A DNA stretch of 64,000 bases, taken from NCBI GenBank assembly GCA_010909165.1, contig MU008157.1:1-64000 (forward strand). Direction: 5' to 3'. A program made the position numbers and the translations under genes. Of the stretch, positions 2,301 to 54,002 are shown one piece after another. The notes beneath the pieces were generated by a model that had not been told where the DNA came from, ran no database searches, and saw only the letters and a program-made list of their open reading frames with translations. Origin of the DNA: Anthoceros angustus. Taxonomy: Eukaryota > Plantae > Anthocerotophyta. Within the stretch, counting starts at the first letter, position 1, and the number at the start of each line of letters is the position of its first letter.

Positions 2301-3497
2301 CCAGAAATTAAATTCGTGTCTCGTGGAGGGAGGCCCGCGATCGCGGATCATCCGATTGCGCGCCGCAACCGGGGACTAGGGATTGGGCCATACACGCTTT
2401 GTGGAAATCGAGCCGATCACACTGGGAGTGATTTTCTAAACCATGGTCACAAAGAGGCCACATTTACCCTCTTTATCGTTGTAGACTTGAGATTCGTACC
2501 CAAGGGAGTGATTTCGTGTCAAGACAACCAAAACATAGCCAATCCAACCAAACAACATACAAAACATCTAGCGCCTGCACAAGCTACTATCCTAACAACA
2601 CTGGACTGGCTATCTTAGCCACGCGACTGTTGCTACCTTAGCAACGGACAGCTTGCTATCTTAGCAACCACCCTCTATTTTAGAGCCCATCTCGGGTTCA
2701 GGCTATTAATAGAAGGGGGGCCCACGGGGTCCAAGTGGGTAAGATTGGACACCTCTCTTATCCTTCCACAAAGTCGAGATCCACCAATCGGGTTACCCGA
2801 TCACAACCCACCTCCTTACTAACACTTATCTCTCTTTCTTCCCTCCAACCTTTCAGCTTTCCTCCCAAGCTTCATACAGTCCTCCTGTGCTCTCCCCGAG
2901 GTACCTCTCCTCTCCATACTCCCCAAGTTCCTCTGCAACCCCTTCCGCTCCTTGTTCTCACACCTCACGGCCTCATTCAATCTCCACTTTCTCACAAAAC
3001 ATCACTTACAGTCTCTCCAATCCCTCTTACTTCTCTCCACCAATCGAACTCTCCATGTCAGATTTCCACTCCTCTCACAGTTCACTTTTCGCTCACATTT
3101 TCCAAGCATACAAACCCAGGTTCCGTCTCACTTCACCTTCTCTTCCACCCACAGGCTCCCGCCTTGTCTCCTTTTCCCACATGACCTCGACACCGAAAAC
3201 TCAAACACAAGGTGAGTACTAGACAAGTCAAGAGAATGAGTAAGAGAATGGACAGCCTCCCGGCTTCACAACCCCTTCCTCTTATCCTTGGGAACTCCCC
3301 AAGGAGATCACCAGTTCCCTCCCTTGCTTTCCACCACTCTTGCGGATCCGGTCACACGATGGGCAACTTGGTAGTCTTCGGCTCCTCCTGTGACAGAGAA
3401 AGTTAGACTCAGACTGGATCCGTACCCCCAAACCCCGTGCTCACCCCCAAACACCGAGACTTTAGGCCAACATTGCTTACATTTCATCAAGAGGGGC

Positions 3498-3505
3498 CTC
3501 TTATA
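3498..3505 (-). promoter_or_regulatory. Putative TATA box of LTR B (TATAAGAG)
   Basis: The same TATAAGAG occurs at 13302-13309 and, in an equivalent position just after the LTR ORF, in all four family A LTRs. Confidence 0.5.
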
Positions 3506-3630
3506 CCCAAGATCACCACAAAAGTAGCTTGGCTACTGCCAAAAATACCAATCTCCTAGCCTACCTCCTAGAGGCCTATCTCTTAATTCTATCCACTATG
3601 AGGGAAGATTAGTCTATAACACATGGGCCT

Positions 3631-6211
3631 TCATCTATTCAGGCCACTTACCCTATTATCCCTCCCCGGGCCTCCTAGGCCGCCTAGCCCATGTTCTCCT
3701 CTCGCCTCTTGGCTGGTTGGGCAATCTCTCCCACAAAATCTCCACCTCCTCGAGGACTCTCCCTCTCTTGTGCTCGCAGCACTACTCCTCCTCGGTGAGC
3801 TCTTGAATCTGGATGGGTAAAGTCTCCGTAAGAGTCCAACCCATAGGTAGGATCCGGCCGCCAAGGCATGGATCAAGTACCTCCATGTCCCTCTGTGCCC
3901 ACAACAACATAAACTTTCGTGACAATCTTCTCACCAAGGAGAATCCAGCATGATTATCTTGATAAGCATCCTCAATCTAATGCACCATTGGGAAGTTAGA
4001 CTTAGAGCGGTGCTTACCCGCCCCCGGCCTGCTTTGTCCTCCTCCGATCTTCGTTGCCCTTTCTTCCTTCCGTGGCTTTGGTCTTGGAGCTTGTTACGTT
4101 GTTGCTTCCCTAGCAGTGCAGTGTTGCTTCCTAGCAACGGCGGCGGTTGCTTGCTTAGCAACCTCCTCTGCTAACTCGAATGATTCTTCCATAGGAGCCT
4201 CCGCCTCTCCACGGTGGCCTCCTTGCAATCCCGGCCCTCTTGGCCTCCTTCCAGCCTTTCCTAGCCTCCCCTCTCCTTCTGGCGCGTGAGGCATCCGAGG
4301 TTTCACTGCACTTGTGCATCCGAAATAACATCTGCAGCTCTCCTATGGTGCTGTGTGTCGGAGAGCCGAGCCATGAGGGCTTCTGGTCCTTAGACTCAAC
4401 TCCTGGACCTTCCCTATTTCCACTTCCAAGCGCTAGGCGTCCCTCCAAAACCTCCTTCTCCTTCTTCATCTTGGAGCTCCTCCACCGCCCCTGTTGCTTC
4501 CCTTGCTGCTACTGTAAACCTAACAAGGAGAGGACGAGCTATCTCGATCTTCCATCTCGCCCGTGCCATGAAACCAACTCCTGTAGGTGATGTTAGGTCC
4601 CGGACCTTCGGAATGGGCTCCCTCCTTCCTATCCGCGACCGCCTCACACACTTCCGGGTATACTTGAAAGCCCCGCTGAATGTAGTCTTTCTCGGATCAC
4701 GTGCCCAAGGTTGGGCTGATTCCTCCTGTGACTGGTTTCCCCCTGCTCCGGGATATTGGTGCTGCCCGCCTTGCCCTTGTCTTGCTTCCGTCTGTGTGAG
4801 CTCCTGCGCGCTCTTGTGGCTCTAGGTGTTGTTGAGTCCCCGTTGCTCCCGGCTCCTCTTGGGCCTGCTAGCCTTAGCAACAGCAAACCGCCACTCCACC
4901 ACATTCCTTTCATGGACACTTGGACTTCTCACCTTCACTCCCCACCGGAGATGGCCTCTTCCTCCGACTCCTCTTTGGGCTTCCTTCTTTCAAACACCGG
5001 CCTCCGAATGAAAGGTGAGACCATCTCCATTCCCTCCAAAGAACTGGCATGGTCAAAACGTGGATTAAGAAGGGAGATAGAGCTGAGGGGCTAGGTGATG
5101 GTAGGGTCAAGTGGTCCCTCTCCTGCACGTGTCATAGAACATCTGGCCCAATCTATCTTGGACCCTCTCACCACCTCATAGAGAAAGACAAGAAATGGTG
5201 AATGTGCTCCAGCTTCTTAGTGAGCCGAGAGCACAGGATCCACTGGCTAATCCACATGGGTCTAGCTTGTTGGTGACCCATTCTCCACTCTAGACAATGT
5301 GGGAGCAATGACCGCTTGCCTCCCGACTTTTGAGAGATGGTTTCTGAAAGGGTCAATGATTATCCCACATTCCTCTTGGTCTCTCATAAAAAGAATATTC
5401 CAGCGGGGTTGGTCCTCACGTTGCCTTCCCAATGGCCTTCTCCCTCATGCGCTCGCACACTCCAAAACCAACGTAGGGCTATTGTAGCACCACTTTTTGT
5501 CCATGAAGGACGGTGATGCTTAGCCACTAAAGACCCCTTCACTCTCCGGTGCCCCATATTGGGCCATTGATCGTAATGGCCTCAATGGCGGCCGGAGTTC
5601 TTCTTAGGTGCCATGTCCTATGACACTTTAGAGCTTACAGGAGCCCCAACACCGCTTCTGGCTCCCATTTCCGTGTTCGACTTCAGACCCGGCTCTCTGA
5701 ATTGAAACCCCACCGCCAATACACCTCCGCCTCGGCCACTGTCACCCTACCTCGGTTGTATGAGGCTTGGAGGTGTATCCTGCAACCACTAGACCCCCTA
5801 GTGCGCTTTTCCCCCGCGACCTCCCGGTGCGTGCCTGGGCACACACTCTTTCTTCCTCAGCAGTTCCACCCCCTTCACTGCCTATCCGACTTTGTTATTT
5901 CCTGCACCACGCCACCGCCTCTTCTGTGACACGCCCGATTACTCCCACCGCTGTTGAGGATTTCACCGCGCCCTCACCGCTTTCCCATTGCTGCCAGCAC
6001 TGGGCGTCTCTGCCGCGCTGGTGCCATGCCCGCTTCCCGCCCTCTCAATCTCCGCCGCCAAACCTTTGGTCTCCTCTTGGCCCGCCGCGCCACCGCGACA
6101 CCTCGCCTTGCATCCGTCCGCTCGCTCCACCACCCACGGCTTTGAGGCGCGGCGCCTCTTCACCGCTGGATTCGATGCAAATACTCTTCCGCCATCGGAC
6201 TTAATTGCCAA
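3631..6211 (-). CDS. LTR-borne accessory ORF of family B (frameshifted in this consensus), unknown function
   Basis: Minus-strand peptides WPNMGHRRVK, FMDKKWCYN, EECGIIIDPF and FLVFLYEVVRGSKIDWA are collinear with homologous peptides in the family A LTR. A charged, coiled-coil-like C-terminal half follows. Ends are approximate. Confidence 0.7.
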
Positions 6212-6555
6212 TAGGACCCCCTTACTTCCGTTTGGGTATTCCTTGTGATTCCATCGATTGGATTTTCAAGTCATTGAAAGAAACTCCAACTTGGTTGCTA
6301 CCATAGCAACAGGCTCCGAGTTGTGGTCATAGCAACAGTCTGTTAGCAACGGCCCTAGCAACGCGTAGCAACGGTCGAGCCCAACCCTCCGAGGTCATCG
6401 TGATCGTGACTAGACTCTCTTCCTCCTACTAGGCTCTAGTAGACTTTTCTTTATTTCCTAACCTACTTCACACATTCCAACTCCACACGATTCTCGCAAC
6501 TTAAACACAAAACAAAAACACTCCTTTCAGGGGTCGTACCCATGTGGTCACCACA

Positions 6556-6571: not shown

Positions 6572-6585
6572 GTTGCCCCGCCAAC

Positions 6586-13429: not shown

Positions 13430-16400
13430 ATTCGTGGCCACTTACCCTATTATCCCTCCACAGGCCTCCTAGGCCCTAGCCCATGTTCTCCTCTTGCTCT
13501 CGCCTCTTGGGTTGGGCAATCTCTCCACAAAATCTCCACCTCCTCGAGCTGGACTCCTCCCTCTCTTGTGCTCGCCATAGCGCTGGGTACTCCTCCTCGG
13601 TGAGCTCTTGAATCTGGATGGTCAGAGTCTCCTCCGAAGAGTCCAACCCATAGGTAGGATCCAGTGCCAAGGCATGGATCAAGTACCTCCATGTCCCTCC
13701 GTGCCCACAACAACATAAACTGGGTGACAATCTTCTCTCCAGCCAAGGAGAATCCGGGCACATGATTATCTTGATAAGCATCCCTCAATCTAATGCACCA
13801 TTGGGAAGTTAGACTTCTTAGGCGGTTACCCTCCCCCAGCTGTTGTCCTCCTCCCGATCTTGTTGCCCTTTCTTCCTGCGTGGCTTTGGTCTTGGAGCTT
13901 ATGATTGTTTTCCCTAGAGCAGGCTGAGTTGCTTCCCTAGCAACGGCCGTGTTGCTTAGCAACCTCCTACTGCTAACTCAGATTCTTCCATAGGAGCCTC
14001 GCCTCTTCCACGGTGGCCCTCCTTGCAATCCCGGCCCTCTTGGCCTCCTTCCACCTTTCCTAGCCTCGTCCCTCTCCTTCTGTGGCCCGAGGCATCCGAG
14101 GTTTCCTGCACTTGTGCATCCGACGTGACTCTCCTATGGTGCTGTGTCGGAGAGCGAGCCATGAGGGCTTCTGGTCCTTAGACTTCCGCAACTCCTCGGA
14201 CCTTCCCTATTTCCACTTCCAAGCCGCTAGGCGTCCCTCCAAAACCTCCTTCTCCTTCTTCATCTTGGAGCTCCTCCAGCTCCCCTGTTGCTTCCCTTGC
14301 GCTTTGTAAACCTAACAAGGAGAGGACGAGCTATCGATCTTCCATCTCGCCACAGTGCGTGCCATAGCTGAAACCAACTCCTGAGGGTGATGTTAGGTCC
14401 CCGGACCTTTGCCGGGAATGGGCTCCCTCCTTCCTATCTCTGTCGTCACAACTTCCGGTATACTTGAAAGCCACCGTTGAGCAGTGTAGTCGCTTTCGGA
14501 TCTCGGCCGTGCCCAAGGGTTGGGCCGATTCCTCCTGACTGTGGTTTCCCACCCAGCTCTGGGATATTGGTGCTGCCAGCCTTGCCCTTGTCTTGCTTCT
14601 GCCTGTGTGAGCTCCCGTGCAGCTCTTGTGGCTCTAGGTGTTGTTGGAGTCCTGCTGTTGCTCTCCTCTTGGTACTGCCTTAGCAACTGCTGTTTTGTTA
14701 GCAACTGGCCGTACCTTAGCCACGGTCACATTCCTTTCATGGACACTTCGGACTTCTCACCTTCACTCCCAAAGCCACGGAGATGGCCTCTTCCTCCGAC
14801 TCCACTTGGACCCCAAGTGGCCCCACCTTCTATTAATAGCCGTGCTGAACCCCAGATGGGCCCCGCTCTCATCGAATAGAGGGTGGTTGCTAAGATAGCA
14901 ATCGGCTCGCCCGTTAAGGTAGTAACAATTGAGGGTCGCGCTAAGATAGCCACAGTGTCGAGTGTTGTTTAGGATAGTAGCTTGTCTCAGAGTCGCTAGA
15001 TGTTTTTGTATATGTTTGGTTGGATTATTATGTTTTGGTTGTCTTGACACGAAATCACTCCTCTTGGTACGAATCTCAAGTCTACAACGATAAAGAGGGT
15101 AAATGTGCGAAAGAAGAGTTAGCAACAATGAGGAGGTTGCTTAGCAACCTCCCTACTGCTAACTCCTAAGAATGATTCTTCCATAGAGCCTCTGCCTTCC
15201 ACGGTGGCCCTCCTTGCAATCCCGGCCCTCTGGCCTCCAGCCTTCCTAGCCTCGTCCCTCCTTCCCTGTGGCGCCTGAGAGGCATCCAGGTTTCAGGCTG
15301 CACTTGTGCATCCGAATAACATTCTGTGACCTCCTATGGTGCCTGTGTGTCGGAGGAGCCGAGCCATGAGGGCTTCTCGGTCCTTAGACTTCGTCAACTC
15401 CCTTCCTGGACCTTCCCCTATTTCCACTTCCAAGCCGCCATGGCGTCCCTCCAAAACCTCCTTCTTTCATCTTCCTGGAGCTCCTCCACCGCTCCTGTTG
15501 CTTTTGCCGCTCCAGAACCTAACAAGGAGAGGACCAGAGCTATCTCGATCTTCCATCTCGCCTCGGGTGCGTGGCCATAGCTGAAACCAACCTCAGAGGG
15601 TGATGTTAGGTCCCCGCACCTGCCGGGAATGGGCTCCCTCCTTCCCATTCTGTCATGACGCCACTGTCACAACTTCCTACTTGAAAGCCACCCTGCTGGA
15701 ATGGTGTAGTCGCTTTCGGATCACTGGCCGCCCAAGGGTTGGGCCGATTCCTCCTTGACTGGAGGTTTCGTACCAGTTCTCGGATATTGGTGCTGCCAGC
15801 CTTGCCCTTGTCTTGCTTCATCGCCTGTGTGAGCTCCTGGGCGCGCTGGCTCTAGGTGTTGTTGAGTTCCCTGCTGTTCTACCCTCTTGGTACTGTTAGC
15901 CTTAGCAATGAGCTGTTGTTAGCAACCTGGCCGCTACCTTAGCTACTCACATTCCTTTTCATGGACACTTCTGACTTCTCACCACCTCAAGCCACTGGAG
16001 ATGGCCTCTTCCTCCGACTCTCTTGGGCTTCCTTCTTTCAAACACTGGCCTCCGAAATGAAAGGTCGAGACCATCTCCATTCCCTCCAAAGAACTGGCAT
16101 GGTCAAAACGTGATTAAGAAGGGAGAGGGAGGGGCTAGGTGATGGTAGGGTCAAGTGGTCCTCTCCCCCTGCACGTGTGTCATAGAACCCGCCCAATCTT
16201 GGACCTCCCTCACCACCTCATAGTAGAAAGACAAGGAAATGATGAATGTGCCTTCCTTCTTAGTGAGTCGAGACACGTGATCCACTTTGGCTAATCCAAA
16301 TTACTGTGGTCTAGCTTGTTGGTGACCCATTCTCCACTCTAGACAATGTGGAGCAATGACCGCCAGGCCTCCTCATACTTTTGAGGAGATGGTTTCTAAA

Positions 16401-17460
16401 GGGTCAATGATTATCCGCACATTCCTCTTCGCTCTCATAACATCTTAAGCAAATTGAATATTCCAGCCGCGGGGTTGGTCTCACGTTGCCTTCCCCAATG
16501 GCCTTTCTCCTCATGCGCCAGACACCCAAAACCAACGAGGGCTATTGTAGCACCACTTTTTTGTCCATGAAGGATGTGATGCTTAGCCACTAAAGACCCC
16601 GCTTCACTCTCCAAGGTTCTATATTGGGCCATTGGACTGACTGTGAATGGCCTCAATGGCGACGGAGGGTTCTTCTTAGGTGCCATGCTCCTGGCCCTAT
16701 GACACAAGCTTAGAGCTTACAGAGCAAAAGGTGTCCCCACACTGCCTATGCTCTAATTTCACTTTCTCGTGAGTTGACTTCAAAGACCTCCTCCTGAATT
16801 GAAACCCCGACCGCCAATACACTCCCGCCTCGGCTGGGCCGTCTGGCCTCACCTCGGTTGTATGAGGCTTTGAGGGTGTATCCTGCAACCACTGCTGGGA
16901 TTTGGCCGACCCCTAGTGCTTTGTCTTGCCCCGCCTGGCTGACCTCCCCTGAGTGCGTGCCTCCGCCATGGGTCACCCTGCACACTTCTTTTCCTCAAGG
17001 ATTCCCATGTACCCCTTCACAGCCCATCCGACTTGCTCGCTCATAGCTTTCCTCGCGTACCACACTGAGCCGCCCGCCTAGCCTTTCTCCGTGGAGTTGC
17101 ACGATTACTCCCCACTCGCTGAGCATTTTACACTACCACTGGCTTACTCTCCGTATTGCCCTGCACGCCTGCCAGACTCAAGCTCCACTGCACCTTCATT
17201 CCGCCCGCCGCCTCGGTGCCGCCTTTCCAGCTGCCGCCCGCTTCCTCCAGCCCCTCTCAATCCTCGCCGCCAAACGGTTGGTCTCCTCACGAAAGCGCTG
17301 CTATACCGGGCAACTTCACGATCCGCCGCGACACCTCGCCTTGCATCCGTCCGGGCGCTCGCCCCTCCACCTCCACCCGCGCTGAATTCCTGCGCGCGGG
17401 CGCCGTCTTCGCTCCGCTCGATTCGATGCAAATTTTCCCATCGACTTAATTGCTAATAGG
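13430..17460 (-). pseudogene. Second copy of the family B LTR-borne ORF, interrupted by the rearrangement
   Basis: HIHHFLVFL.YEVVR at ~16250-16210 and the same C-terminal peptides as 3631-6211. Confidence 0.6.
14802..15107 (+). repeat. Inverted copy of the terminal ~0.3 kb of LTR B
   Basis: Reverse complement of ~12270-12545 and ~2460-2740 (GAGGGTAAATGTG, GTCTTGACACGAAATCACTC, CCACTTGGACCCC). Confidence 0.9.
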
Positions 17461-21050: not shown

Positions 21051-21064
21051 TATAGACTATAGTC

Positions 21065-26671: not shown

Positions 26672-27475
26672 ATGACTTTGGCAAACCAAGTCGATGCACC
26701 TTTTATAAGACAAGTATGGGGTTACAATCTTGAGCAAGAATTAGACTTTATCCGCCATTATTGATCAATATCGATAATAAGTATAGATACGGAATTTGCA
26801 TAGTGGTGGTGCCCGATGTTATTACATAGAAGACTATGAATACCAAATGATCAAAGGTAATGTGGATAGACTAAGGTTAATCCAACTAGGGCTTACATTT
26901 GATTTTAAAATGCAAAGCTGCGCTTTTGTAAAGAACAGGCGAAGTTTGGTATGGCAATTCAATTTTAGAATCAACCTTGACCAAGATATGTATGCGTAAG
27001 ATAGTATAAATCTTTTATGAATAGTTGGTATAGATTTCGATCAACACCGGATAATGGGCATAGATGTTCAACAGCTTTGGATACTATTCAAACACCGCAA
27101 CATATTACATAATCAAAATTTGCAATGGATTGGTTTCCACCCAACCTACGATTTTGCCTTACTTGCAAAAAAACCATCACAGTGGTCAAGAATTACCGGA
27201 GACAAGAGAAATTTCTTTGTTTTGTTAGCTAATTATTTTCCTAATATATTTGACGTCAAATACATTATGTGTTGGACAAGTAGTTTAAGTATATTAGCAA
27301 AAGTACTAACAGGAGACTGGGACTTGTCATCAAGCAGGTGTCCAGATTCCTATTGACTTTTCATGTATTTCATAAAAATATGTGAAAAGTGGCCCATCTT
27401 TCAAGATGGACGCCTATGTATTATAAGGATCAATATATATCGGATTAAGTCCATATAAAAATATTTTTAAAATAA
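26672..27475 (+). CDS. CAF1: CAF1-like deadenylase, copy 2 (frameshifted as assembled)
   Basis: DTEF, QLGLTF, WQFNFR, FHPTYDFA and CHQAG motifs. Confidence 0.85.
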
Positions 27476-28764: not shown

Positions 28765-29045
28765 GGATGAGGATGGTGATGTCTTAATTCCTTTACCAAG
28801 GATCCTCGAAAGGTGTTTGATCATACACCAAGGAACATGAATTTGTATTCTACTGGCGTGAGTCCTATTGGCGCATAAAGACTCAACAAGCGGAGATTTC
28901 CTGATCCCATGTTGTTGGGGTTTGTTAAACTTGGTGGTGGCCCCCAATAATCGGCCTTTACCTTCGCAGTTTATCAACTGTCAGGCAAAGCAACCTCGCT
29001 ACTTCCTTGACTTAATTTCTTTCAACCTCTACTCCTCATTCCTCT
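28765..29045 (+). pseudogene. 5' part of the LINE fragment in unit 3, split by element A1
   Basis: Matches the corresponding parts of units 1 and 2 up to the insertion site and resumes at 42141. Confidence 0.55.
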
Positions 29046-29273
29046 CAGGAAGACCACATGTGCACTAACCCCGCTCCCAAGTGTCGATGAACGATTTTTT
29101 TGTTTTGGATGTGTTAGAATAGCAAAGTGCTTTGAGAATCATCTCGAGTCGTCTTTTATACGGAATGGTCCTTGGCCCTTGGAGATAATAATAATTTTTC
29201 GACCTTAGGTTTGACCCAGGGTAGAAATAGAGTCCTTGGGTATTGGGAATTTTAGAATAAAAGGTGTCTATAT

Positions 29274-31739
29274 ATGCTAGGGATGCTCACAATATGCCAC
29301 AGTAGTCAAGGGGTGGTGGCTAGTTCCACCACGGTGGCCGAGAACGGACGCATGCACTGTGGGGAATTTACAACCCTAGTGGCGGAGCGGGACTACCATA
29401 CCGGAGCGAATCGGGAGAAGGGCACACCCAAGATCATGAGGTCGCGACTTTCCGTGAGGGGCAATGGAGCGGAGTCAGCAGAAGAGGGGGCGCTGCAACG
29501 ACGCCAGCCAAATCCGCCTCACTGCAGGTGAGGAAGGCGCGACGATCGTGACAGAGGGCGGCGAGGAGAGAAATCGGGCGCCGCAAGTTCGCGAGGAGGC
29601 GTGGAAGGAGCGCGCGAGGCGGCTTCGTTTTTTTTCTCTCCACCAACTGCAGGGTAGTCGAGGTTTTGTTTTGGGAAACAACGAGAAGGAGATGGCGCCC
29701 GAGCCGCCGAAATCTCACTCACGCAGCGGGGCCCAACATGGACCATCGGAAAGTGAGAGTGGCACTGTGCGTGAGCCGGGTCAAGTTCATGGAGAAGAAA
29801 TGGTGCTACGACACCGCATTGGTGCAAGAGTGCGCCCGGCAATTAAGGACCAAGTCGCAAGAGGGTGACGCGAGGAAAAGGCCGCAGATCTGGATTTGGC
29901 CCTCTTCGAGCAAAGGTATGGGCGAGAAGCATCGAGGATGGGAGCTTGGTGATTGACCCCAAAGAAGACCTTGAGAGCAGCCGCGCATGAAGCCCGGGAA
30001 GTGAGAGTGAACAATGGGTGACTCGCCAACTCGTGTCTGTGGTGGGATTGGCCAAATGGATTTGTGTTTTTAACCTAAGGATCATATGGCGGATCACTTC
30101 TTGGTTTTTCTTCACGAGGTGGTCAAGGGTACACAAATTGATTGGGGAGGATGATTTTCAAAGAGCCTGTGAGGAGAAGGCGAATTTTACTCTCTCTTCC
30201 CTCGGCCCTCCTTGATTTCGCCTTTTCCGATTCATGTATTTGCGCATTCCGGTGTTTAACGAGTTGAAGTCGTCCGCATGGTTGGAAGCCAGGAACTCAA
30301 GGTAGAAGAGGAAGAAGAAGAAGGATTCGGCAAGGATTCCAAGCTTGGGAGTGCGCTCGGAAGGTTCTAAGAGGGTGGGGAAGTTTTCCAAGGGTAAGGC
30401 AAGGCGACACGAACGGGATCGGCGAAAAAGGGAGGACAGCAGGAGGAGGAACCCAGCCACACCTGTGGTCACCAGTCAAGACTCAGCAGAACGGTAAAGG
30501 AGGAGAAAATAAAGGAAATGGCAAGTTGCTCCTCCTGTGCAGGATGAATCGCCGCTAGGGGAGAATGAAGCGGGGAAGAGGCAAGGCGGCACCAACCCCT
30601 AGGAGAGGAGGGGTTAACTTCACCGAGACCGAACGAGCTCCGGACATTTTGGCGACATTTCACCGAACCGTCCCCGAGGTGGGGATAGGAGACACCGCGA
30701 CACGAGAATTGTTGTGGAGGCGGATGGGCAAGGGACAGCCCAATTTGGGGATTTGGTGGTTTGACTTCGCCATGGCACGACGCAGGATCTCCTCGATCAA
30801 GCCCATGGCTCTCACTGGCCGAGTGTGCAAGGCCAGGAGAAGTTGCTCAAGGAGAAGTTGGAGAGCCCGAAGGCGAGAGCAAGGCGAGGAGCGCAGACGG
30901 AGTGCGGCCTTATGCAAGGCAGAGCGGACATGTCCACTCACAGAAGCTTTAGTAAATCAGTCAAGATGCTACAATTGAAGAGCTTCAAGATGAGGTCTCA
31001 TGAGTAGGAGCAGGTGGAAGCGATGGCGCCTTGGAGAAAATTCAAGAAGCGGAGAGGTACAAGCGGAAAGAGACGGCTAGGGCCGAGTCAAGAGAGAGGT
31101 GGCCAAACCAAGAAAGGCCGAGCAGCCACCGCAGAGCCAAACAACCACCGTGGAAGTAACCACCACGGTGGCTAAACCAGCCACCGCCGTGAACGGGAAC
31201 CGAGGTGGGGAAGTCACCGAGGAGTGTCGCAGATGGAGGGATGATCCGGAGAATCAACACGCCCAGGATTGTCCACGGAGGAGAGGGTAAGGACCTCAGA
31301 CGTATGGACAGTACGGCCGGATGAGGATGCTCATGTCCTGCCGCGCATGGTGAGCGGTGCTCACTCTAAAGCATGTGGTTGTTGGGACGGAGGGGCGTAA
31401 ACCACCGGGTCAGACATCTTGACGCCACGGCTACGCTGGTTCCTTCGAGTAGGAGCGGCGCCTATCCTCCGCAAGTGGTGCCGGAAGAGATGAGCGAGGC
31501 GCAGGAGCATGGAGGAGGAGCACAGTATGGTTGTCCAAATGAGGAGGAGCGGGACAATGGACATAGAGGACAAAGGCCGCGTGGAAGGCGCGAGGGAAAT
31601 TCAGGAGAGTGAGGAGGTGGAGGTGGGGAAAATCGCTCGGATCGTAGGCGAGGCCAAGAGCGAGGGGTCCCCATGGGCCGAGGGCGAGGCAAAGAATCGC
31701 GGAGGGCAGGCTGATTTTAGGGGAGTCGCGATAGCCTAG
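29274..31739 (+). CDS. LTR-borne accessory ORF of family A (~800 codons, frameshifted in this consensus)
   Basis: GPNMDHRKVR (~29730), FMEKKWCYD (~29790), EDGSLVIDP (~29935), DHFLVFLHEVVKGTQIDWG (30092-30148), then a coiled-coil-like QEKLLKEKLES region, ending GVAIA* at 31739. Homologous to the family B LTR ORF. The start codon is uncertain. Confidence 0.72.
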
Positions 31740-31865
31740 GACCGGGTTTTTTCGAGGGAGGGGAGTTCCATCACCGTAGAGTTGTTGCTTAGATTGGTGG
31801 GGCGCCGTGGTAGGAGCTACAATTTTAGACACTAAAAGAGAAGTGAGCCGTTGGACCACGCCATG

Positions 31866-31873
31866 TATAAGAG
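31866..31873 (+). promoter_or_regulatory. Putative TATA box of LTR A (TATAAGAG)
   Basis: Also at 41293, 54135 and 63387; the same 8-mer sits in the equivalent place in family B. Confidence 0.5.
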
Positions 31874-33078
31874 ACCCTGGGTGTCTCTCAAGGCACGATT
31901 TCGTGTGTGAACTTCCGTATCGAACCGAGTGGGGTTGATTGAGACGTCAAGATCAAACGGTTCGCACCGCCTTCGTCACAAGAAGGCCGGAAGATCTCGG
32001 ATGGTCGAGAGCGGAGTGGCCAAGCTCCACTGGGTAACGGTGGCGCCACGAAAGAGGTAGGATTGCCGCGGACGGCCGAGCGGAAGGAAGGCGAATCGCC
32101 CAAGCACCGACCGGGTTTTCCCCGATCCTCTTTCCAACCGCCCACCAGTGTGTTCATTCCATGAGAGAGGGTCCGTGGTCAAGGGGTCTGTGGCCCAAGG
32201 GAAAAGGGGTCTGTGGCCCGTGAGACGAGGGAGAGTTCATTGGGAAGGGAAAGGTTCCAAGGGTAGTGAGTGCGCTACTGGGAGGGATTGTGAGAGTGTG
32301 TGAGGGAAAATCGAATGCGAGAGGAGTGGAAGCGTGGTGGATCGCAGAAATTCCTGGTGAGGCGATATAGGTATCCGTATGCCCATAGCCCCTAGGTCCG
32401 TGTTAGAGAAGCCGTAAGACTCAAAGGCGCGGCGGGCCCGCCATGTGGCGAACCGCCACCGCGGTGGCCGAGTCTACCACGGTGGTGGGTTTGGGCGGTA
32501 GCTGGAGAAGGTGGGGTAGTGAGCACGCAGGTCTAGAATCCATAGATTTAGCACACCTTGACACAACACCATTCCCTTGGGATCGAATCCTAGGACTATA
32601 ACGACATAGAGGGTAAATGTGGCCTCTTTGCCTTGGATGCAAAACCCATTCCACATTTTTGCTGCCGGGAATGAAACTGCTGGTTATAGGGGACTAACCA
32701 TAGCTTAGGTGTCTAGTTTTGGAGTGTATCTAGTTAGGTAGATGGATGCCACGGTTGAGTCGAGGGTTCGAGTCAAGTCGGACGGAAGGCCACACGAGAA
32801 GCGACAACGCCAAGCAATCGGAAAGGTTAAAAGGGTTGCAAAACCGAGTTGAGGAGGGTCCACCGGAAGACGCACCCGCTGGAAGGAGAAGGAGGTAAGG
32901 AAGCAAGGGACGGGGTCCGATCTTGTTGGAGCAAGATCCCCAACCTCGGACTTGGACGAGGTACCACCGCCAAGGAACCTAATTCCATCCACCGACCTCT
33001 CTTCCAAGTGTGCATCGCTGGAGATCAATCGACTCGCAGAACCGTTGTTGGACCAACCACGTCAATAGAACGATAGTC

Positions 33079-35000
33079 ATGACCACCACCACGTGGTCAC
33101 CACCAAGCAACCTTATCAGTATGGAGAGGGAAGGGGTATGAAGACCGATGAATTTGTTGAGCGCTTTGAGGACATTTGCAAAACCAGAAGCGGAGATGCA
33201 CAGCATTCATTGTTCTGGAGTTCTTCGGGGTCCAGTAAGTGGTATAGGCGCGAATACCTCAAGTCACCACACCTCCAAAGAACCTATGAAGAATTAAAAC
33301 CGCCTGTGAAAGGTCTGGGGCTTGACGAGGGATACGTGTTGTCCAAGCTTGAAAACCGCAGAGAGAAGAAGGAAACCTTGCAGCGTATGTGGAGAGGTTT
33401 CACACGCGATCAAGTGGCCCTCACTCGAGTTGCTGCAATACGGTGGTTCGCTAAAGGCTGGGTTCTAAGATGGGGAGACACGAAGGTTACAAGCGGAGAA
33501 GAATTTGGGCAAGGCTATCAAGGCGGCGCTAAACTATGAGGAATCCAACCCGCAAGGGAGGAGGAAGGCTAAGAAGGAGAAGAAGAAGCCTGATGGAAAA
33601 AGAAGGATTCCTCATCCTCCTCGGAAGGAAGTTCATCGGTGAAGAAAGCTCCATGAAGATTCCATGAAAGTTCCTCGGAGGAGGAAGAGGAGGAAGGCCA
33701 TCGATGAGGAGCGCCAAATGGAAAAAGAAAATGAAGGGTCGTGCACGGGACAACAAGGAGCTGGCAAGGGCAAAACAGGAGGCGATGTACGCGAAAAAGG
33801 ACGCGGAACAAGCGAGGAGGGAGGCTGAGGTGGCAGCCAAGAAAGTAGAACAACAGGGGAACAAGATGGAGGAGATGATGGCAAAATTCGAGAAATTCCA
33901 TCTTAATGCGGTCAAGGAACATGAGAGGCGGAGAGCTGTCACGAACCCACGAGCCAACCTCTTCTGTTCAACGTGTGGGCAGCAGGGACACTCCAAAGCT
34001 AATTGTCCGACGACAAGGGTACACCTGCTGGGATATGAGGAAGAGGAGGAAGAGGGTCCGGTGGAAGATACATATCAGATCCAGGAGGTTCAGCCAACCC
34101 AAGTGTACCCAAAAACCATGTACCCGGCCAACCTACGTAACTCCACGGGGTAGGCTCAGAATCACCGGGCGGGTAACAATCCAATGGGCACCGTGCTATA
34201 ATTGTCGCAACCTTGGACACTATGCATGCCCTTATCCAACTCCAAGGCAATGGAGATTTTGATAAACTATGTCAAGATTGCAGCAGGGCATTTGGGTGGA
34301 AGTGTGCTCGCCAAAGCCCCGAAAGACGGTGAGGATCGCCACCACCCGTAACGGAGTTCGCCAAACCCAAGTCCGGTCCGCCATGCATGTTGAGGATGCA
34401 CTTATGGCGGTATGGGAGGATGCCGAGATTGGAACCCCGAGGAGCTTGGAGGGATTAGACGCAGGAAGCGATTATTATGGGGAAGCCTCCGCCATGGTCG
34501 TAGAACAAGGAGCACAAAAGCAAAAGAGAGGCGTGGGGAAAAAAGAAGAAAGGAGGCGGATACGACCACGGATCGATGAGGGAGAGAGTGTCGCCACCAA
34601 TGGGAAATACCAACACCTGGAACGCCAAAGATTTAAAAAAAACAAGTCCTGCAGTGACTTGGCGGATGGACCATATGTGCAAAAGAGTGATGCGAGACAT
34701 TGAGTGTTCCAAGGAAAGGTGAATGAAGGTGCCGAAAGTCAAGGGGTGGAACCCTACCGATTTCAGAAAGTTACCGAGTTAGGGTTTCCACGGACGACGG
34801 GCGAAGTCATGGATATGATACAAGAAGAATTGGCAAGGAGGCTACGGGGAAAAGGGGGTGTCGATTTCCACCACCCTGTGGGAGTCCACCACCCCACCGG
34901 AAGGGCCACCGCACTAAGTCATGACGAAACCGGAACCCAACCAACCAAACTCGGATGGTCAAGGCCACCGCTTCTTCAATCTCGCCGAGGCCATCATGGA
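33079..35000 (+). pseudogene. gag: gag of A1, frameshifted
   Basis: DEFVERFEDIC, KAIKAALNYEESN, CSTCGQQGHSKANC, CYNCRNLGHY and a third CQDC..GHL knuckle. Confidence 0.85.
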
Positions 35001-35089
35001 CCAACATTTCATGATCACATTCGGACAACTCCTCCGAGACAATCCGATATAAATGATCGAGGGCGTTAAAAGAGGCGCAACCCAAAAGA

Positions 35090-38403: not shown

Positions 38404-38421
38404 GTTGGCGAGGACGCCAAC

Positions 38422-38437
38422 AAATGAGAAGGGAGTA
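38422..38437 (+). promoter_or_regulatory. Polypurine tract of A1
   Basis: AAATGAGAAGGGAGTA directly before TGTGGAAG. Confidence 0.85.
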
Positions 38438-41400
38438 TGTGGAAGACCACATGTGCACTAACCCCGCTCCCAAGTGTCGTGATGAACGATTTTTTTTGTT
38501 TTGATGTGTTAGAATAGCAAAGTGCTTTGAGAATCGTCCGAGTCGTCTTTTATACGGAATGGTCCTTGGCCCTTGGAGATAATAATAATTTTTCGACCTT
38601 AGGTTTGACCCGAGGGTGGGGTAGAAATAGAGTCCTTGGGTATTGGGAATTTTTAGAATAAAAGGTGTCTATATATGCTAGGGATGCTCACAATATGCCA
38701 CAGTGTAGTCAAGTGGGTGGTGGCTAGTTCCACCACGGTGGCCGAGAAACGGACGCATGCACTGTGGGAATTTACAACCCTAGTGGCGGGACTACCACGG
38801 AGCGAATCGAGAGAAGGGCACACCCAAGATCATGAGGTCGCGACTTTCCGTGGAGGGGCAGGAGCGAGTGCAAGAAGAGGGGCGCGCATAACGACGCCAG
38901 CCAAATCCGCCTCACTGCGCAGGAGGAAGGCGCGACGATCGTGACAGAGCGGCGCGGAGGAGAGAAATCGGCCGCAAGTTCGCGAGGAGGCGTGGAAGGA
39001 GCGCGAGGGCGGCTCGATTTTTTTTCTCTCGACCGTAACTGCAGGGTAGTCGAGGTTTTGTTTTGGGAAACAACGAGAAGGAGATGGCGCCCAGCGGCCG
39101 AAATCTCATCACGCAGCGGCCCAACATGGACCATCGGAAAGTGAGAGCCGGCAGGTGCGTGAGCCGGGTCAAGTTCATGGAGAAGAAATGGTGCTACGAC
39201 CGCATTGGTGCAAGAGTGCGCCCGCAATTAAGGACCAAGTCGCAAGAGGGTGACGCGAGGAAAAGGCCGCAGAACTGGATTTGGCCCTCTTCGAGCAAAG
39301 TATGGGCGAGAAGCATCGAGGATGGGAGCTTGGTGATTGACCCCAAAGAAGACCTTGAAAGTCAGCCGCGCTCATGAAGCCTGGGAAGTGAGAGTGAACA
39401 ATGGTCGGGTGACTCGCCAACTCGTGTTCACAGTGGTGGGATTGGCCAAATGGATTTTGTGTTTCCTACGTAACCTAAGGATCATATGGCGGATCACTTC
39501 TTGGTTTTTCTTCACGAGGTGGTCAAGGGTACACAAATTGATTGGGGAGGATGATTTTCGAAAGAGCCTGTGAGGAGAAGGCGAATTTACTCTCTTCCCT
39601 CGGCCCTCCTTGATTTCGCCTTTTCCGATTCATGTATTTGCGCATTCCGGTGTTTAACGAGTTGAAGTCGGTCCGCCTGCATGGTTGGAAGCCGGGAACT
39701 CAAGGTAGAAGAGGAGGAATTGAAGGAGGATTCGGCAAGGATTCCAGCTTGGGAGTGCGCTCGGAAGGTTCTAAGAGGGTGGGGAAGTTTCCAAGGGTAA
39801 GAAGCGAAGGGCGACGGTCGAAGGGGATCGGCGAAAAAGGGAGGCAGAAGAGGAGGAACCCACACACCTGTGGTCACTGTGTCAAGACAGCAGAACGGTA
39901 AAGGAGGAGAAAATAAAGGGAAATGGCAAGTTGCTCCTCCTGTGCAGGGATGAATCGCCGCTAGGGAGAATGAAGCGGGGAAGAGGCAAGGCGCACCAAC
40001 CCCTAGGAGAGGAGGGTTAACTCAGCCGAGACCGACGAGCTCCGGACATTTTGGCGACATTTCACCGAACCGTCCTACGAGGTGGGGATAGGAGACACGA
40101 CACGAGAATTGTTGTGGAGGCGGATGGGCAAGGGACAGCCCAATTTGGGGATTTGGTGGTTTGACTTGCCATGGCACGACGCAGCGGATCTCCTCGATCA
40201 AGCCCATGGCTCTCACTGGCCGAGTGTGCAAGGCCAGGAGAAGTTGCTCAAGGAGAAGTTGGAGAGCCCGAAGGCGAGAGCAAGGCGGCCGAGGAGCGCA
40301 GACGGAGTGCGGCCTTATGCAAGGCACAGGAGCAAGAGGCACATGTCCACTCGCAGAAGCTTTAGTAAATCAGTCAAGGGGCGATGCTACAATTGAAGAG
40401 CTTCAAGATGAGGTCTCGCGAGTCCAGAGCAGTGGAAGCGATGGCGCCTTGGAGAAATTCAAGAAGCGGAGAGGTACAAGCGGAAGAGACGGGCTAGGGC
40501 CGAGTCAAGAGAGAGGTGGCCAAACCAAGAAGGCCGAGCAACCACCGCAGAGCAAACAACCACCGTGTAACCACCACGGTGGCTAAACCAGCCACCGCCG
40601 TGGAACGGGAACCGAGGTGGGGAAGTCACCGAGGAGTGTCGCAGATGGAGGGATGATCCGGAGAATCAGCACCGCCCAGGATTGTCCACGGAGGAGAGGG
40701 TAAGGACCTCAGATCGAAGGGCGACAGTTACGGCGTCCGGATGAGGATGCTCATGTCCTCGCCGCCGCATGGTGAGCGGTGCTCACTCTAAACGTGTATG
40801 TGGTTGTTGGGACAGAGGGGCGTAAACCACGGTCAGACATCTTGACCGCCAGCTACTGCTGGTTCCTTCGAGTAGGAGGGCGCCTATCCTCCGCAAGTGG
40901 TGCCGGAAGAGATGAGCGAGGCGCAGCGAGCATGGAGGGAGGAGCACAGATGGTTGTCCAAATGAGGAGGAGCGGGACAATGGACATAGAGGTCACAGGC
41001 AACGTCCGGGAAGGCGCGAGGGAAATTCAGGAGAGCGAGGTGGAGGTTGTGGGGAAAATCGGATCAGGTGGCAGGCCAAGAGCGAGAGGGGTCCCCATGG
41101 GCCGAGGGCGAGGCAAAGAATCGCGAGGCGGCAGCTGATTTTAGGGGAGTCGCGATAGCCTAGGACCGGGTTTTTCGTGCGAGAGGATAGGGAGTTCCAT
41201 CACCAGAGCCGGTTGCTTAGATTGGTAAGGGGCGCCGTGGTAGGAGCTACAATTTTAGACACTAAAGAGAAGTGAGTGTTGGACCACGGATGTATAAGAG
41301 ACCCTTTGGGTGTCTCTCAAGGCACGATTTCGTGTGTGAACTTCCGTATCGAACCGTGAGTGGGGTTGATTGGAGACGCCCGTCAAGATCAAACGGGTTC

Positions 41401-42140
41401 GCGCACCGCCTTCGTCACAAGAAGGCCGGAAGATCTCGGATGGTCGAGAGCGGAGTGGCCAAGCTCCACTGGGTAACGGAAGGCGGGCCAAAAAGAGGTA
41501 GGAATTGCCGGACGGCCGAGGCGGAATCCGAAGGCGAATCGCCCAAGCACCGACCGGGTTTTCTTCCCGATCCTCTTTCCAACTGCTGCCACCATGTGTG
41601 TTCATTCCATGAGAGAGGGGTCTGTGTGGCCCAAGGAGGGGTCTGTGTGGCCCAAGGGGAAAAGGGGTCTGTGTGGCCCGTGAGACGAGGGAGAGTTCAT
41701 TGGGAAGGGGGAAGGTTCCCGAAGGGGTAGTTGAGTGCGCGCTGGGAGGGATTGTGAGAGTGTGTGAGGGAAAATCGGGAATGCGTAAGAGGAGTGGAAG
41801 CGTGTGGTGGAATCGCAGAAATTCCCAGAAGTAAAGTGAGGCGTATATAGGTATCCGTATGCCCATAGCCCCCTAGGTCCGTGTTAGAGAAGTTGAAATA
41901 GACCCATGAAGGCGGCCATTGGGGACCCGCACGGCGAACCGCCACGGTGGCCGAGTCTACCACTTGGTGGGTTTGGGCAAGGTAGGAGAAGGTGGGGTAG
42001 TGAGCGACGGTAGGTCTAGAATCCATAGATTTAGCACACCTTGACACAACACCATTCCCTTGGGATCGAATCCTAGGACTATAACGACATAGAGGGTAAA
42101 TGTGGCCTCTTTGCGCCTTGGATGCAAAACCCATTCCACA
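38438..42140 (+). repeat. 3' LTR of A1 (contains a second copy of the LTR ORF, ~38675-41162)
   Basis: TGTGGAAG...TTCCACA; same peptides as the 5' LTR copy. Confidence 0.92.
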
Positions 42141-51602: not shown

Positions 51603-54002
51603 ATGCTAGGGATGCTCACAATATGCCACATTGTGAGTAGTCAAGTGGTGGTGGCTAGTTCCACCACGGTGGCGAGGGGCACTGTGGAATTTACAACCCT
51701 AGTGGCGGGCGGGACTACAGTCGGGAGGCGCGGAGAAGGCACACCCAAGACCGAGGTCGCGACTTTCCGTGAGGGGCGGTGGCGAGCTGCAGCAAGAAGC
51801 GGCCACGCCAAATCTCGCTCACAGGAGGAAGGCGGCACGACGAGGCGGCGGAGGAGAGAAATCGGCGCCCGGCAAGTTCGCGAGGCGTGGAAGGAGGCGA
51901 GAGGCGGCTCGATTTTTCTCTTGACCGAGATCCTAGTCGAGGTTTTGTTTTGGGAAACAACGAGAAGGAGATGGCGCCCGAGTGCGGAAATCCCTGCAGC
52001 GGTGAACATGGACCACGAAAGTGAGAGGTGGCGCTGGTCAGGGGCCCAAGTTCATGGAGAAGAAATGGTGCTACTGACCACATTGGTGCAAGAGTCGCAA
52101 TTAAGGACCAAGTCGCAAGAGGGTGACGCGAGGAAAAGGCAGGCGGGATTTGGCCCTCTTTCGAGCGTGTATGGGCGAAGCATCGAGGATGGGAGCTTGG
52201 TGATTGTGAAGACCTTGAGGCTGCGGCCGCGCTCATGAAGCCTGGGAAGTGAGAGTGAACAATGGTGGGTGACTCGCCAACTCGTGTTCTGCATGGTGGG
52301 ATTTGGCCAAATGGATTTTGTGTTTCCTCTGAGCCGGGATCATATGGCGGATCACTTCTTGGTTTTCTTCACGAGGTGGTCAAGGGTACACAAATTGATT
52401 GGGGAGGATGATTTTCGAAAGAGCCTGAGGAGAAGGCGATTTACTCTCTCTTCCTCGGCCCTCCTTGATTTCGCCTTTTCGATTCATGTATTTGCGCATT
52501 CCGTGTTTAACGGTTGGGTCATGTCCGCATGGTTGGAAGCCGGTCGGGGAACTCAAGGTAGAAGAGGAGGAATTGAAGGAGGATTCGGGCAAGGATTCCA
52601 GCTTGGGAGTGCGCTCTGGAAGGTTCGGAAGAGGGTGGGGAAGTTTCCAAGGGTAAGAAGCGAAGGCGGCGGCAAGACGGGATCGGCGAAGGGGAGGACC
52701 GGCAGCGGAGGAACCCACAGCACACCTGTGGTCACCAGTCGAGACAGCAGAACGGGTAAAGGAGGAGAAAATAAAGGGAAATGGCAAGTTGCTCCCTAGT
52801 GCAGGATGAATTCGCCGCTAGGGGAGAATGAAGCGGGGAAGAGGCGTGGACCAACCCCTAGGAGGAGGGGTTAACTTCAGTGGCCAGACCACGGAGCTCC
52901 GGACATTTTTGGCGACATTTCACCGAACCGTCCTGAGGTGGGGATAGGAGACACCGCCGCACGAGAATTGTTGTGGAGGCGGATGGGCAAAGGGACAAAT
53001 TTGGGGATTTGGGGTTTGACAGCATGCAGGCGGATCTCCTCGATCAAGCATGGCTCTCACTTGGCGAGTGTGCAAGGCCAGGAGAAGTTGCTCAAGGAGA
53101 AGTTGGAAAGCACTGGAAGGCGAGAGCAAGGCGAGGAGGCAGAGAGCAGAGTCTGGCCTTATGCAAGGCACAGGAGGCTTAAGGGACATGTCCACTCGAG
53201 AAGCTTAGTAAATCAGTCAGGTCAAGGCGCATGCTACAATGAAGAGCTTCATGAGGTCTCGCGAGTCCAGGAGGCGGTGGGCGATGGCGCCTTGGAGAAA
53301 TTTGGCGGAGGTACAAGCGGAAAGAGACGAAGCTAGGGCCGAGTCAAGAGAGAGGTGGCCAAACCAAGAAAGGCCGAGCAACCACCGCAGGAGCCACAAC
53401 CACCGTGGAAGCAACCACGGTGGCTAAACAGCCACCGTCGTGGAACGGGGCGAGGTGGGGAAGTCACCGGCAGAGTGTCGCAGATGGAGGGGAGATCCCG
53501 GAGAATCAACAGCCCGGCCCAGATTGTCCACGGGAGAGGTAAGGACCTGATCGGGAAGGCGTGACTACGGCGTCCGGATGAGGATGCTCATGTCCCCGCA
53601 CGCATGGTGAGCGGTGCTCACTCTAAACGTATGTGGTTGTTGGGACAGAGGCGTAAAACTCGGGCGACATCTTGACCGCCACAGCGTTTACCTGGTTCCT
53701 TCGAGTAGGAGCGGGCGCCTATCCTCCGCAAGTGGTCGGAAGAGATGAGCGAGGCGCAGCGAGCATGGAGGGAGGAGCACAGTATGGTTGTCCAAATGAG
53801 GAGGAGCGGGACAATGGACATAGAGGCCGCAGGCGCGCAACGTCCGCGGGAAGGCGCGAGGGAAACTCAGGCGGTGAGAGTGAGGTGGAGGTTGTGGGGA
53901 AAATCGCTCGGATCGAGGCGAGGCCAAGAGCGAGAGGGGTCCCCATGGGCCGTGGGGCGGCGCAATCAGCGGCAGCTGATTTTAGGAGTCGCGATAGCCT
54001 AG
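51603..54002 (+). CDS. LTR-borne ORF, A2 5' LTR copy (frameshifted)
   Basis: MLGMLTICH start region, DHMADHFLVF, ends GVAIA*. Confidence 0.68.

What the first reader, a model, noticed from the sequence alone, without database searches (positions are those of the whole stretch)
29274..31739. A conserved ~800-codon gene lies inside the LTRs of two Athila-like families, so each element carries it twice
Seen: the LTRs are very long (A ~3.6 kb, B ~4.1 kb), and pol ends only ~20-35 nt before the PPT, so there is no internal env-like region. Seen: translating the LTRs in the element's sense direction gives collinear blocks conserved between families whose DNA is otherwise clearly divergent. A vs B: PNMDHRKVR / PNMGHRRVK; FMEKKWCYD / FMDKKWCYN; EDGSLVIDP / EECGIIIDP; HFLVFLHEVVKGTQIDWG / HFLVFLYEVVRGSKIDWA. 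Both then run into a charged, coiled-coil-like C-terminal half and stop just upstream of a shared TATAAGAG. Known: Athila/Tat-group elements often carry an extra ORF, normally between pol and the PPT; LTR-resident genes are best known from retroviruses (MMTV sag, lentiviral nef overlapping U3). Inference: an accessory gene under purifying selection sits in U3, is copied into both LTRs at each replication and would survive in solo LTRs. Its function is unknown. Six copies are in this window (four A, two B).
Basis: partly seen in the sequence, partly recalled or inferred. Interest (0 to 1): 0.82.

Follow-up and report, generated by a model that had tools for sequence, protein, structure and literature searches.

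The report
Accessory gene inside plant retrotransposon LTRs
Two related plant jumping-gene families carry a conserved protein-coding stretch, likely one gene of about 700-750 codons, inside their 4-kb end repeats, so each element holds it twice; each family also has its own clustered DNA motif, which the protein would likely bind to keep its own family active.

Summary
Core observation confirmed, details corrected. Two Athila-like Ty3/gypsy families have 3.6-4.1 kb LTRs, and pol ends 16-20 nt before the PPT. Their LTRs share a sense-strand coding domain at about 29692-30345: it scores 117-150 against at most 52 in shuffles, and 21 of 29 mismatches in four blocks fall on third positions. The gene most likely runs from ATG 29692 (not 29274) to a TAG at 31739. 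Similarity beyond the N-terminal third rests on two short blocks. The window is noisy long-read sequence (about 9% deletions; pol is equally broken), so an intact ORF is inferred, not seen. The six copies are two insertions: A2 duplicates A1. New here: each family has its own dyad motif, clustered at four matching places (B: GTTGCTA 33 times in B, 0 in A). This suggests a VANC-like sequence-specific anti-silencing factor (about 40%, untested). Homologue searches were empty. Ten literature searches found no LTR-internal ORF in plants. Unchecked notes from this scan report the same layout in two other plant-type genomes.

The parts
29046..32655 (+). Family A, element A1, 5' LTR (3.6 kb as read; about 3.9 kb allowing for deletions)
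29269..29275 (+). TATATAT in the 5' part of the A LTR; candidate internal promoter for the LTR gene (4 of 4 A LTRs, 0 of 2 B LTRs)
   Evidence: function inferred
29314..29337 (+). A-motif cluster 1 (CCACCR / YGGTGG), near the LTR 5' end
29692..31739 (+). LTR-internal gene, A1 5' copy: M-A-P ATG to the GCCTAG found in both families; frame broken by error-like indels
29692..30345 (+). Conserved N-terminal domain shared by A and B (PNMDHRKV, FMEKKWCY, IDP, FLVFLHEVVKGTQIDW)
31126..31190 (+). A-motif cluster 2 inside the gene; dyad GTGGC-N7-GCCAC versus B GTTGC-N7-GCAAC, both changes synonymous (VAKPATA / VAKQATA)
31373..31395 (+). Downstream conserved block (NVYVVVGTE in A1 3' copy versus KVYVVVGTE in B; 5 of 5 mismatches at third positions)
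31866..31873 (+). TATAAGAG shared by all six LTRs; likely main promoter near the U3/R border
   Evidence: role inferred
32456..32488 (+). A-motif cluster 3, about 200 nt before the LTR 3' end
32656..32675 (+). PBS, tRNA-Asp type (cleaner in A2 and B)
   Evidence: compared with the FIDEL PBS in PMC2844528
32750..38403 (+). gag-pol of A1 (zf-CCHC, RT, RNase H, integrase), frame-broken like the LTR gene; start approximate
34868..34911 (+). A-motif cluster 4, between gag and protease
38424..38437 (+). PPT ATGAGAAGGGAGTA, 20 nt after the pol stop, identical in A and B
38438..42140 (+). A1 3' LTR
39084..41163 (+). LTR gene, A1 3' copy
51971..54002 (+). LTR gene, A2 5' copy (A2 duplicates A1)
61233..63258 (+). 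LTR gene, A2 3' copy (LTR cut by the window end)
2425..6555 (-). Family B 3' LTR (4.1 kb as read)
3675..5614 (-). LTR gene, B 3' copy
13469..16686 (-). LTR gene, B 5' copy, interrupted by an inverted ~300-bp LTR-end fragment and a ~900-bp internal duplication
6294..6372 (-). B-motif cluster 1 (GTTGCT / AGCAAC); further clusters at about 4101-4162, 2629-2668 and 10108-10156

Best explanation
These Athila-like retrotransposons carry a conserved accessory coding sequence, likely one ~700-750-codon gene, inside the LTR, likely in U3, and its protein would likely bind its own family's clustered dyad motif to counter host silencing or boost transcription. Shown: the LTR bounds, the PPT next to pol, sense-strand purifying selection on the N-terminal domain, and reciprocal family-specific motif clusters at four matching places. 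Inferred, origin: the usual Athila order pol - extra ORF - PPT - LTR became pol - PPT - [ORF in U3] when a PPT just behind pol came to define the LTR start. Reverse transcription then copies the gene into both LTRs, and solo LTRs would keep it. Inferred, expression: the gene lies upstream of the main TATA, so it needs its own promoter in the first ~600 nt of the LTR, or splicing from the genomic RNA. Inferred, function: a dimeric or oligomeric nuclear protein recognises GTTGC-N7-GCAAC in B and the GGTGG/CCACC arrays in A, working like VANC of VANDAL transposons. My odds: real coding gene in the LTR about 85%; in U3 about 80%; this DNA-binding function about 40%.
For: Frameshift-aware alignment of single copies, LTR 640-1300: sense 150, 142, 117 against antisense 91, 82, 74; 0 of 100 shuffles reach the sense scores (maximum 52). 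The sense/antisense contrast resembles gag (693/413) and pol (793/355). Four DNA-defined collinear blocks: mismatches 4/4/21 by codon position, p 1.9e-5 (1.6e-3 after frame choice), pN/pS 0.14 over 41 codons; the matching antisense frame has stops in 3 of 4 blocks. Frame breaks look like read errors: gaps outnumber substitutions 1.6-2.8 fold in the ORF, gag, pol and the tandem unit alike, and short-read contigs differ at 527 indel places over 13.2 kb. Contigs of run X2 (RNA is a guess) cover 29563-29759, 30514-30755, 31085-31278, 39177-39864, 40184-40467 and 40674-40815; one 1690-nt contig is collinear through the gene. Motifs: GTTGCTA 33 in B (expected 1.8), 0 in A1, A2 and the flanks. Clusters of 3 or more: A motif 8 in A1, 7 in A2, 0 in B; B motif 8 in B, 0 in A; shuffles give at most 2. 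Nine GTTGC-N7-GCAAC dyads in B. Precedent: VANC proteins bind family-specific motif arrays (PMC5735166); VANC resembles MAIN and the Athila domain is predicted to oligomerise like VANC (PMC13547354).
Against: No intact frame was seen in any copy. No family assignment: Pfam gave only sub-threshold noise (1 of 88 stretches; 2 of 18 frames), homologue searches were empty, the one representative hit was a spurious repeat protein, PDB gave 0. Middle and C-terminal regions align at shuffle level. The codon model was weak: the tandem-unit control reached z 2.9 and one antisense window reached z 5.0. The blocks were selected for DNA similarity, which lowers pN/pS. Motifs and landmarks were chosen after seeing the data, so the co-location p of 4e-4 is optimistic; LTR duplication inflates the counts (19 distinct GTTGCTA sites). 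The A motif is also frequent, unclustered, in B (33) and the tandem units (28). VANC motifs are same-orientation arrays in non-coding DNA; these are dyads and two clusters lie in coding DNA. B lacks the upstream TATA. Nothing here links the protein to the motifs directly.
Confidence: 0.4

Rival explanations
1. The gene is real and in U3, but it is a relocated Athila env-like or structural accessory factor acting on particles, RNA or nuclear import; the motif clusters are bound by host factors or act as RNA hairpins.
For: Same orientation and same order relative to pol as the Athila extra ORF (PMC7264820, PMC2410132). The two in-gene clusters fold better than most shuffles (z -1.9 and -2.65), and the A/B dyad change is compensatory, as a stem would require.
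Against: The other 4 of 6 clusters fold no better than shuffles (z -1.28 to +0.52). The best 19-residue hydropathy in any raw frame is 1.83 and under 1.7 in five of six copies, so no clear membrane span, though frames are broken. Reciprocal family specificity is easier to explain with an element-encoded reader.
Confidence: 0.27
2. Only the N-terminal ~220 codons form a gene, or the gene has decayed in these copies, and the rest of U3 is non-coding.
For: Only LTR 640-1300 beats shuffles; stop depletion downstream is mild (O/E 0.74-0.84 sense) and the A copies are not independent.
Against: The NVYVVVGTE block 1.7 kb downstream has 5 of 5 third-position mismatches; gag and pol give O/E 0.71-0.74 and antisense is 1.06-1.20; one X2 contig runs collinearly to 31278.
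Confidence: 0.15
3. The main transcript starts upstream of the gene (near TATATAT at 29269), so the ORF lies in R/U5 and behaves as a 5' extra ORF like those of Ogre or Tekay.
For: TATATAT is in 4 of 4 A LTRs; an X2 contig reaches upstream to 29563.
Against: B has no such box, while TATAAGAG is in 6 of 6 LTRs at a matching distance from the likely stop. R plus U5 would be over 3 kb rather than 0.8-1.1 kb (inference).
Confidence: 0.13
4. The similarity is chance or plain non-coding DNA conservation in noisy sequence.
For: The window has about 9% deletions; permissive frameshift alignment extends through unrelated sequence.
Against: With stricter penalties only the N-terminal domain survives and 0 of 100 shuffles match it; the non-coding 74-nt LTR-end block shows no third-position excess (best frame 3/4/6).
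Confidence: 0.05

Closest known systems
Athila clade (OTA, Ty3/gypsy) and its 3' extra ORF (PF03078 ATHILA; PF20167 Transposase_32 in sunflower Athila 14, PMC11728184)
   Same: tRNA-Asp-type PBS, 5-bp TSD, 13-14 kb size, domain order, a sense extra ORF downstream of pol under purifying selection (PMC2410132).
   Different: The ORF lies downstream of the PPT, inside the LTR, so it is present twice; no Pfam match could be shown.
Diaspora of soybean (PMC1142308)
   Same: Athila-lineage element with pol close to the PPT (128 bp), a long LTR (2.5 kb) and a tRNA-Asp PBS.
   Different: Described as lacking an extra ORF; the authors found no long ORF in the other frames of their consensus.
VANC anti-silencing proteins of VANDAL Mutator-like transposons (PMC5735166)
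   Same: An element-encoded accessory gene together with dense, family-specific short motifs that differ by one or two bases between related families.
   Different: VANC is in DNA transposons of eudicots, with same-orientation tandem motifs in non-coding DNA and proven activity. Here: a retrotransposon LTR, dyads partly in coding DNA, no homology or activity shown.
Maize Grande gene23 (as cited in PMC7264820)
   Same: Accessory gene with its own promoter inside a Ty3/gypsy element.
   Different: Antisense, internal, one copy per element.
MMTV sag and lentiviral nef (recalled, no call)
   Same: Coding sequence in or overlapping U3.
   Different: Vertebrate retroviruses, shorter and unrelated proteins.

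Membership tests
Athila clade | PBS complementary to tRNA-Asp (72% of Athila, PMC6317226 file 5) | tested here: met
   B TTTTGGCGCCGTTGCCGGGGA and A2 TTTTGGCGCCGTT match the FIDEL PBS; A1 is noisy. 37% of TatII also use tRNA-Asp.
Athila clade | 5-bp TSD, TG..CA LTR ends | tested here: met
   TTCTC and GTGTG; empty sites occur in the same window
Athila clade | gag-PR-RT-RH-INT order, no chromodomain | tested here: met
   Pfam zf-CCHC, RT_RNaseH, Integrase_H2C2 in 5 of 130 stretches; motif order; pol ends at the PPT
Athila clade | No additional RNase H (separates it from Tat) | tested here: inconclusive
   Only 505-522 nt between the RH and INT motifs, which leaves little room; but basal Tat groups of non-seed plants also lack it (PMC13468544)
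Athila clade | Placement in the Athila clade on an RT-RH-INT tree | not tested
   No reference set was available; 'Athila-like' rests on the features above
Athila 3' extra ORF (PF03078 / PF20167) | Located between pol and the PPT | tested here: not met
   16-20 nt between the pol stop and the PPT
Athila 3' extra ORF (PF03078 / PF20167) | Profile match to the family | tested here: inconclusive
   No match, but the queries change frame every few codons and only 7 of 166 LTR and internal stretches... see full report; pol RT itself gave no RVT_1 hit
VANC-type anti-silencing system | Family-specific short motif at high density in the cognate element | tested here: met
   (motifs chosen post hoc)
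VANC-type anti-silencing system | Motifs as same-orientation tandem arrays in non-coding DNA of a VANDAL transposon | tested here: not met
   Dyads in an LTR retrotransposon, two of four clusters in coding DNA; so at most 'works like', not a member
VANC-type anti-silencing system | MAIN/PMD-like fold | not testable with these tools
   No unbroken natural protein was available to fold
VANC-type anti-silencing system | Binds the motif and demethylates cognate copies | not testable with these tools
   Needs EMSA, DAP-seq and bisulfite data

The most novel reading that the evidence does not exclude
Each LTR of this non-seed-plant Athila-like clade, solo LTRs included, is a self-contained anti-silencing cassette: its own promoter, a ~750-codon sequence-specific DNA-binding protein, and the dyad sites that protein reads, with protein and sites co-evolving per family. 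It would be the first VANC-like system in an LTR retrotransposon, and one that survives the host's main way of deleting such elements.
Probability: 0.3. Interest if true: 0.86.

Novelty: new variant of a known kind. Interest (0 to 1): 0.62.

Why it matters
Plant LTRs are treated as non-coding, and extra ORFs are catalogued as upstream or downstream of gag-pol. A long gene inside the LTR would be duplicated at every transposition and kept in solo LTRs, so LTR-LTR recombination would not remove it. The function of Athila-type extra ORFs has been open for two decades. Two sister families with a shared protein domain and reciprocal, family-specific dyad motifs give a direct two-by-two binding test. 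If it holds, it adds a new source of sequence-specific chromatin effectors.

Tried and rejected
No whole genome is held. Pfam on 88 stop-free LTR stretches: 1 sub-threshold hit; on 18 raw frames: 2 noise hits. Homologue searches with one 112-aa stretch (37 candidates) and a 3-row alignment (3518 candidates): none at E 10; only longer proteins were searched. PDB sequences 0. Viral contigs 0 of 19 candidates. Metagenome pattern scan: 1 hit, L001, a chance match. Rfam 0. No RNA holder listed. X2 has zero depth over 34292-38260 and 31646-32527 and 0 of 30 bins over 2400-22399, where X1 covers 30 of 30; this would fit separate transcription of the A gene, but absence in contigs is no evidence and X2 being RNA is a guess. 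Frameshift penalty 10 aligned everything on both strands and was dropped. The codon model and the exact-block test did not discriminate well (blocks closed in all three sense frames 2 of 37 in the gene, 2 of 36 in gag-pol, 2 of 8 upstream, 2 of 12 downstream). A relic PPT after the stop: the purine run in A1 5' is not kept in the other A copies. Splicing to an acceptor-like CAG at 29650-29652: an X2 contig runs through it unspliced; not excluded. Start at 29274: rejected. No structure was predicted because no unbroken protein was available. A resemblance of 'FL..V.KG..IDW....PSLI' to PF20167 is recalled, comes from no call, and was not confirmed.

Full report
Layout. Self-comparison and end analysis show three LTR elements. 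B lies on the minus strand (about 2425-17820, TSD GTGTG). A1 spans 29046-42140 (TSD TTCTC) and is inserted in a 4.7-kb tandem unit whose empty site occurs three times in the window. A2 (51372 to the window end) has the same insertion site inside a 22.4-kb duplication, so it is a copy of A1. The six LTRs therefore represent two insertions. LTRs read 3.5-3.7 kb (A) and 4.1 kb (B 3'; the B 5' LTR is rearranged). All have TG..CA-type ends, followed by a tRNA-Asp-type PBS or preceded by the same PPT. The pol stop is 20, 20 and 16 nt from the PPT, so there is no internal extra ORF. Pfam found gag, RNase H and integrase pieces in 5 of 130 stretches. The elements are Athila-like by features; no tree was built. 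The host is likely a hornwort according to an unchecked scan note (e1-10596208); I did not test this.

Sequence quality. No whole genome is held. One run, X1, holds the DNA (share 0.25) and may be the source sample. Its contigs differ from 29000-42200 at 527 listed or counted indel places. Six pieces of X2 contigs are 8.8% longer than the window stretches they match. Between copies, gap events outnumber substitutions in the LTR gene (86-149 against 32-70), pol (136/81), gag (126/48) and the tandem unit (80/39). The longest open sense stretch is 139-231 codons in the four A gene regions and 119-214 in pol. Frame breaks are thus mostly read errors, and intactness can be neither seen nor excluded here.

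Is it coding? With a frameshift-aware aligner on single copies, LTR 640-1300 of A against B 3' scored 150, 142 and 117 in sense (three A copies tested of four) and 91, 82 and 74 in antisense; 0 of 100 shuffles reached the sense scores. Gag and pol show a similar sense excess. Pairs with the rearranged B 5' LTR, and A2 5' with B 3', did not recover the domain as best local alignment. Upstream, middle, C-terminal and post-TATA regions were at shuffle level. DNA-only matching gave 14 segments for A1 5' against B 3' and 16 for A1 3' against B 3'; I took four collinear ones at offsets +289 to +311 and left out the off-diagonal ones and the motif block. Their 29 mismatches fall 4/4/21 on codon positions (p 1.9e-5; 1.6e-3 after frame choice), pN/pS 0.14 over 41 codons (the figure of 22 typed into one search was a miscount). 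One of these blocks lies 1.7 kb downstream of the start. The antisense frame with the same phase has stops in 3 of 4 blocks. Stop triplets downstream of the domain are at 0.74-0.84 of expectation in sense and 1.06-1.20 in antisense (gag and pol 0.71-0.74), but 0.86-0.95 in the domain itself and 0.85-0.88 upstream, so this test is weak; the codon model was noisy.

Bounds. All six copies have ATG-GCN-CCN (M-A-P) at the matching place, and B has an in-frame stop shortly before it in both copies. All six have GCCTAG 126-169 nt before TATAAGAG, which occurs six times in the window, once per LTR. The span is 2026-2080 nt in A and 1940 in B 3', or about 700-755 codons after correction. That this TAG is the stop is inferred. 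The gene probably lies in U3, with 0.8-1.1 kb of R and U5 behind the TATA.

Expression. Contigs of X2 (RNA is a guess; same sample as X1) cover six pieces inside the A gene and its leader, one contig of 1690 nt being collinear from 39177 to the equivalent of 31278. A 287-nt contig spans 29563-29759 without a joint at the acceptor-like site. A has TATATAT at 29269 in 4 of 4 LTRs, B in 0 of 2. An internal U3 promoter is the simplest reading, but it is not shown.

Protein family. Unassigned. Pfam, two homologue searches, the representative search, PDB, viral contigs and a metagenome pattern scan gave nothing real. The queries change frame often and even RT gave no RVT_1 hit, so these blanks show little.

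Motif clusters. An unbiased 7-mer scan ranks GTTGCTA first in B (33 seen, 1.8 expected, 0 in A) and CTCGGCC and ACCACGG first in A1 (17 and 13; 3 and 0 in B). Clusters of three or more are reciprocal: A motif 8 in A1, 7 in A2, 0 in B; B motif 8 in B, 0 in A. They sit at four matching places: near the LTR 5' end, inside the gene 630-770 nt before the TATA, about 200 nt before the LTR 3' end, and between gag and protease. B has nine GTTGC-N7-GCAAC dyads; the in-gene dyad of A is GTGGC-N7-GCCAC, a compensatory change that is synonymous at both codons. Four of six clusters fold no better than shuffles; the two in-gene ones give z -1.9 and -2.65. The motifs were chosen post hoc and LTR duplication inflates the counts.

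Mechanism. Most likely an Athila-type extra gene came to lie in U3 when a PPT behind pol set the LTR start (inference). The family-specific clusters suggest that its product reads its own family's DNA, as VANC does in VANDAL transposons. This last step is an analogy (about 40%); rivals are a structural or RNA-level accessory role, a shorter or decayed gene, and a position in R/U5.

Literature seen. [quoted passage not shown] Passages only: PMC2410132, PMC1142308, PMC2844528, PMC5408684, PMC13547354, PMC11728184, PMC12844716, PMC3601003, PMC13468544, 10.1101/2022.12.06.519325, 10.64898/2026.09.17.752431. PMC5735166: abstract and passages. PMC11963269: a term search with no hits. Ten searches turned up no description of a gene inside plant LTRs; subscription papers such as Steinbauerova 2011 and Wright and Voytas 2002 were not seen, and MMTV sag and nef are recalled. 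This scan's unchecked notes report the same layout in two other plant-type genomes (e1-10633543, e1-10590809) and in two other genomes, one called fungal (e1-7552734, e1-7556810); none came up for the motif clusters. The anti-silencing idea arose here, before I saw those notes.

Verdict. A real LTR-internal coding sequence in two sister families, a new variant of the extra-ORF theme, with a concrete and testable functional lead. Interest 0.62.

Noticed in passing
window 19084-29045 and 42141-51371: A ~4.7-kb AT-rich unit repeated head to tail, with a ~600-bp GC-richer segment and short 44-bp and 107-bp arrays. Element A sits at a fixed site in it; empty sites are at 19685, 24354 and 46801. No Rfam hit; no Pfam hit in the stretches scanned. 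Identity unknown.
   Followed up: partly
window 19677-41963 versus 42135-63997: A 22.4-kb higher-order duplication (tandem units plus element A) at 87% identity with error-like differences; a real tandem amplification or an assembly artefact.
   Followed up: partly
window 13951-16020: The B 5' LTR holds an inverted ~300-bp copy of the LTR end (14802-15107) and a ~900-bp internal duplication; possibly a chimeric read.
   Followed up: no
window 38401-38433, run X2 loose ends: A contig shares the pol end and PPT but continues into a different LTR start, which points to a third family with pol next to the PPT.
   Followed up: no
window 32557-32630 versus 2450-2523 (minus): A 74-nt block at 82% identity just before the LTR 3' end is the only clear DNA-level match between the A and B LTRs; likely a replication or packaging signal.
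   Followed up: partly
window 29629-29652; B 5620-5650 (minus): Splice-acceptor-like sequence shortly before the ATG in both families (pyrimidine tract plus CAG in A, CTCTAA..CATAG in B).
   Followed up: partly
window 33083 and 55322: An extra A-motif cluster near the start of gag, without a B counterpart among clusters of three or more.
   Followed up: no
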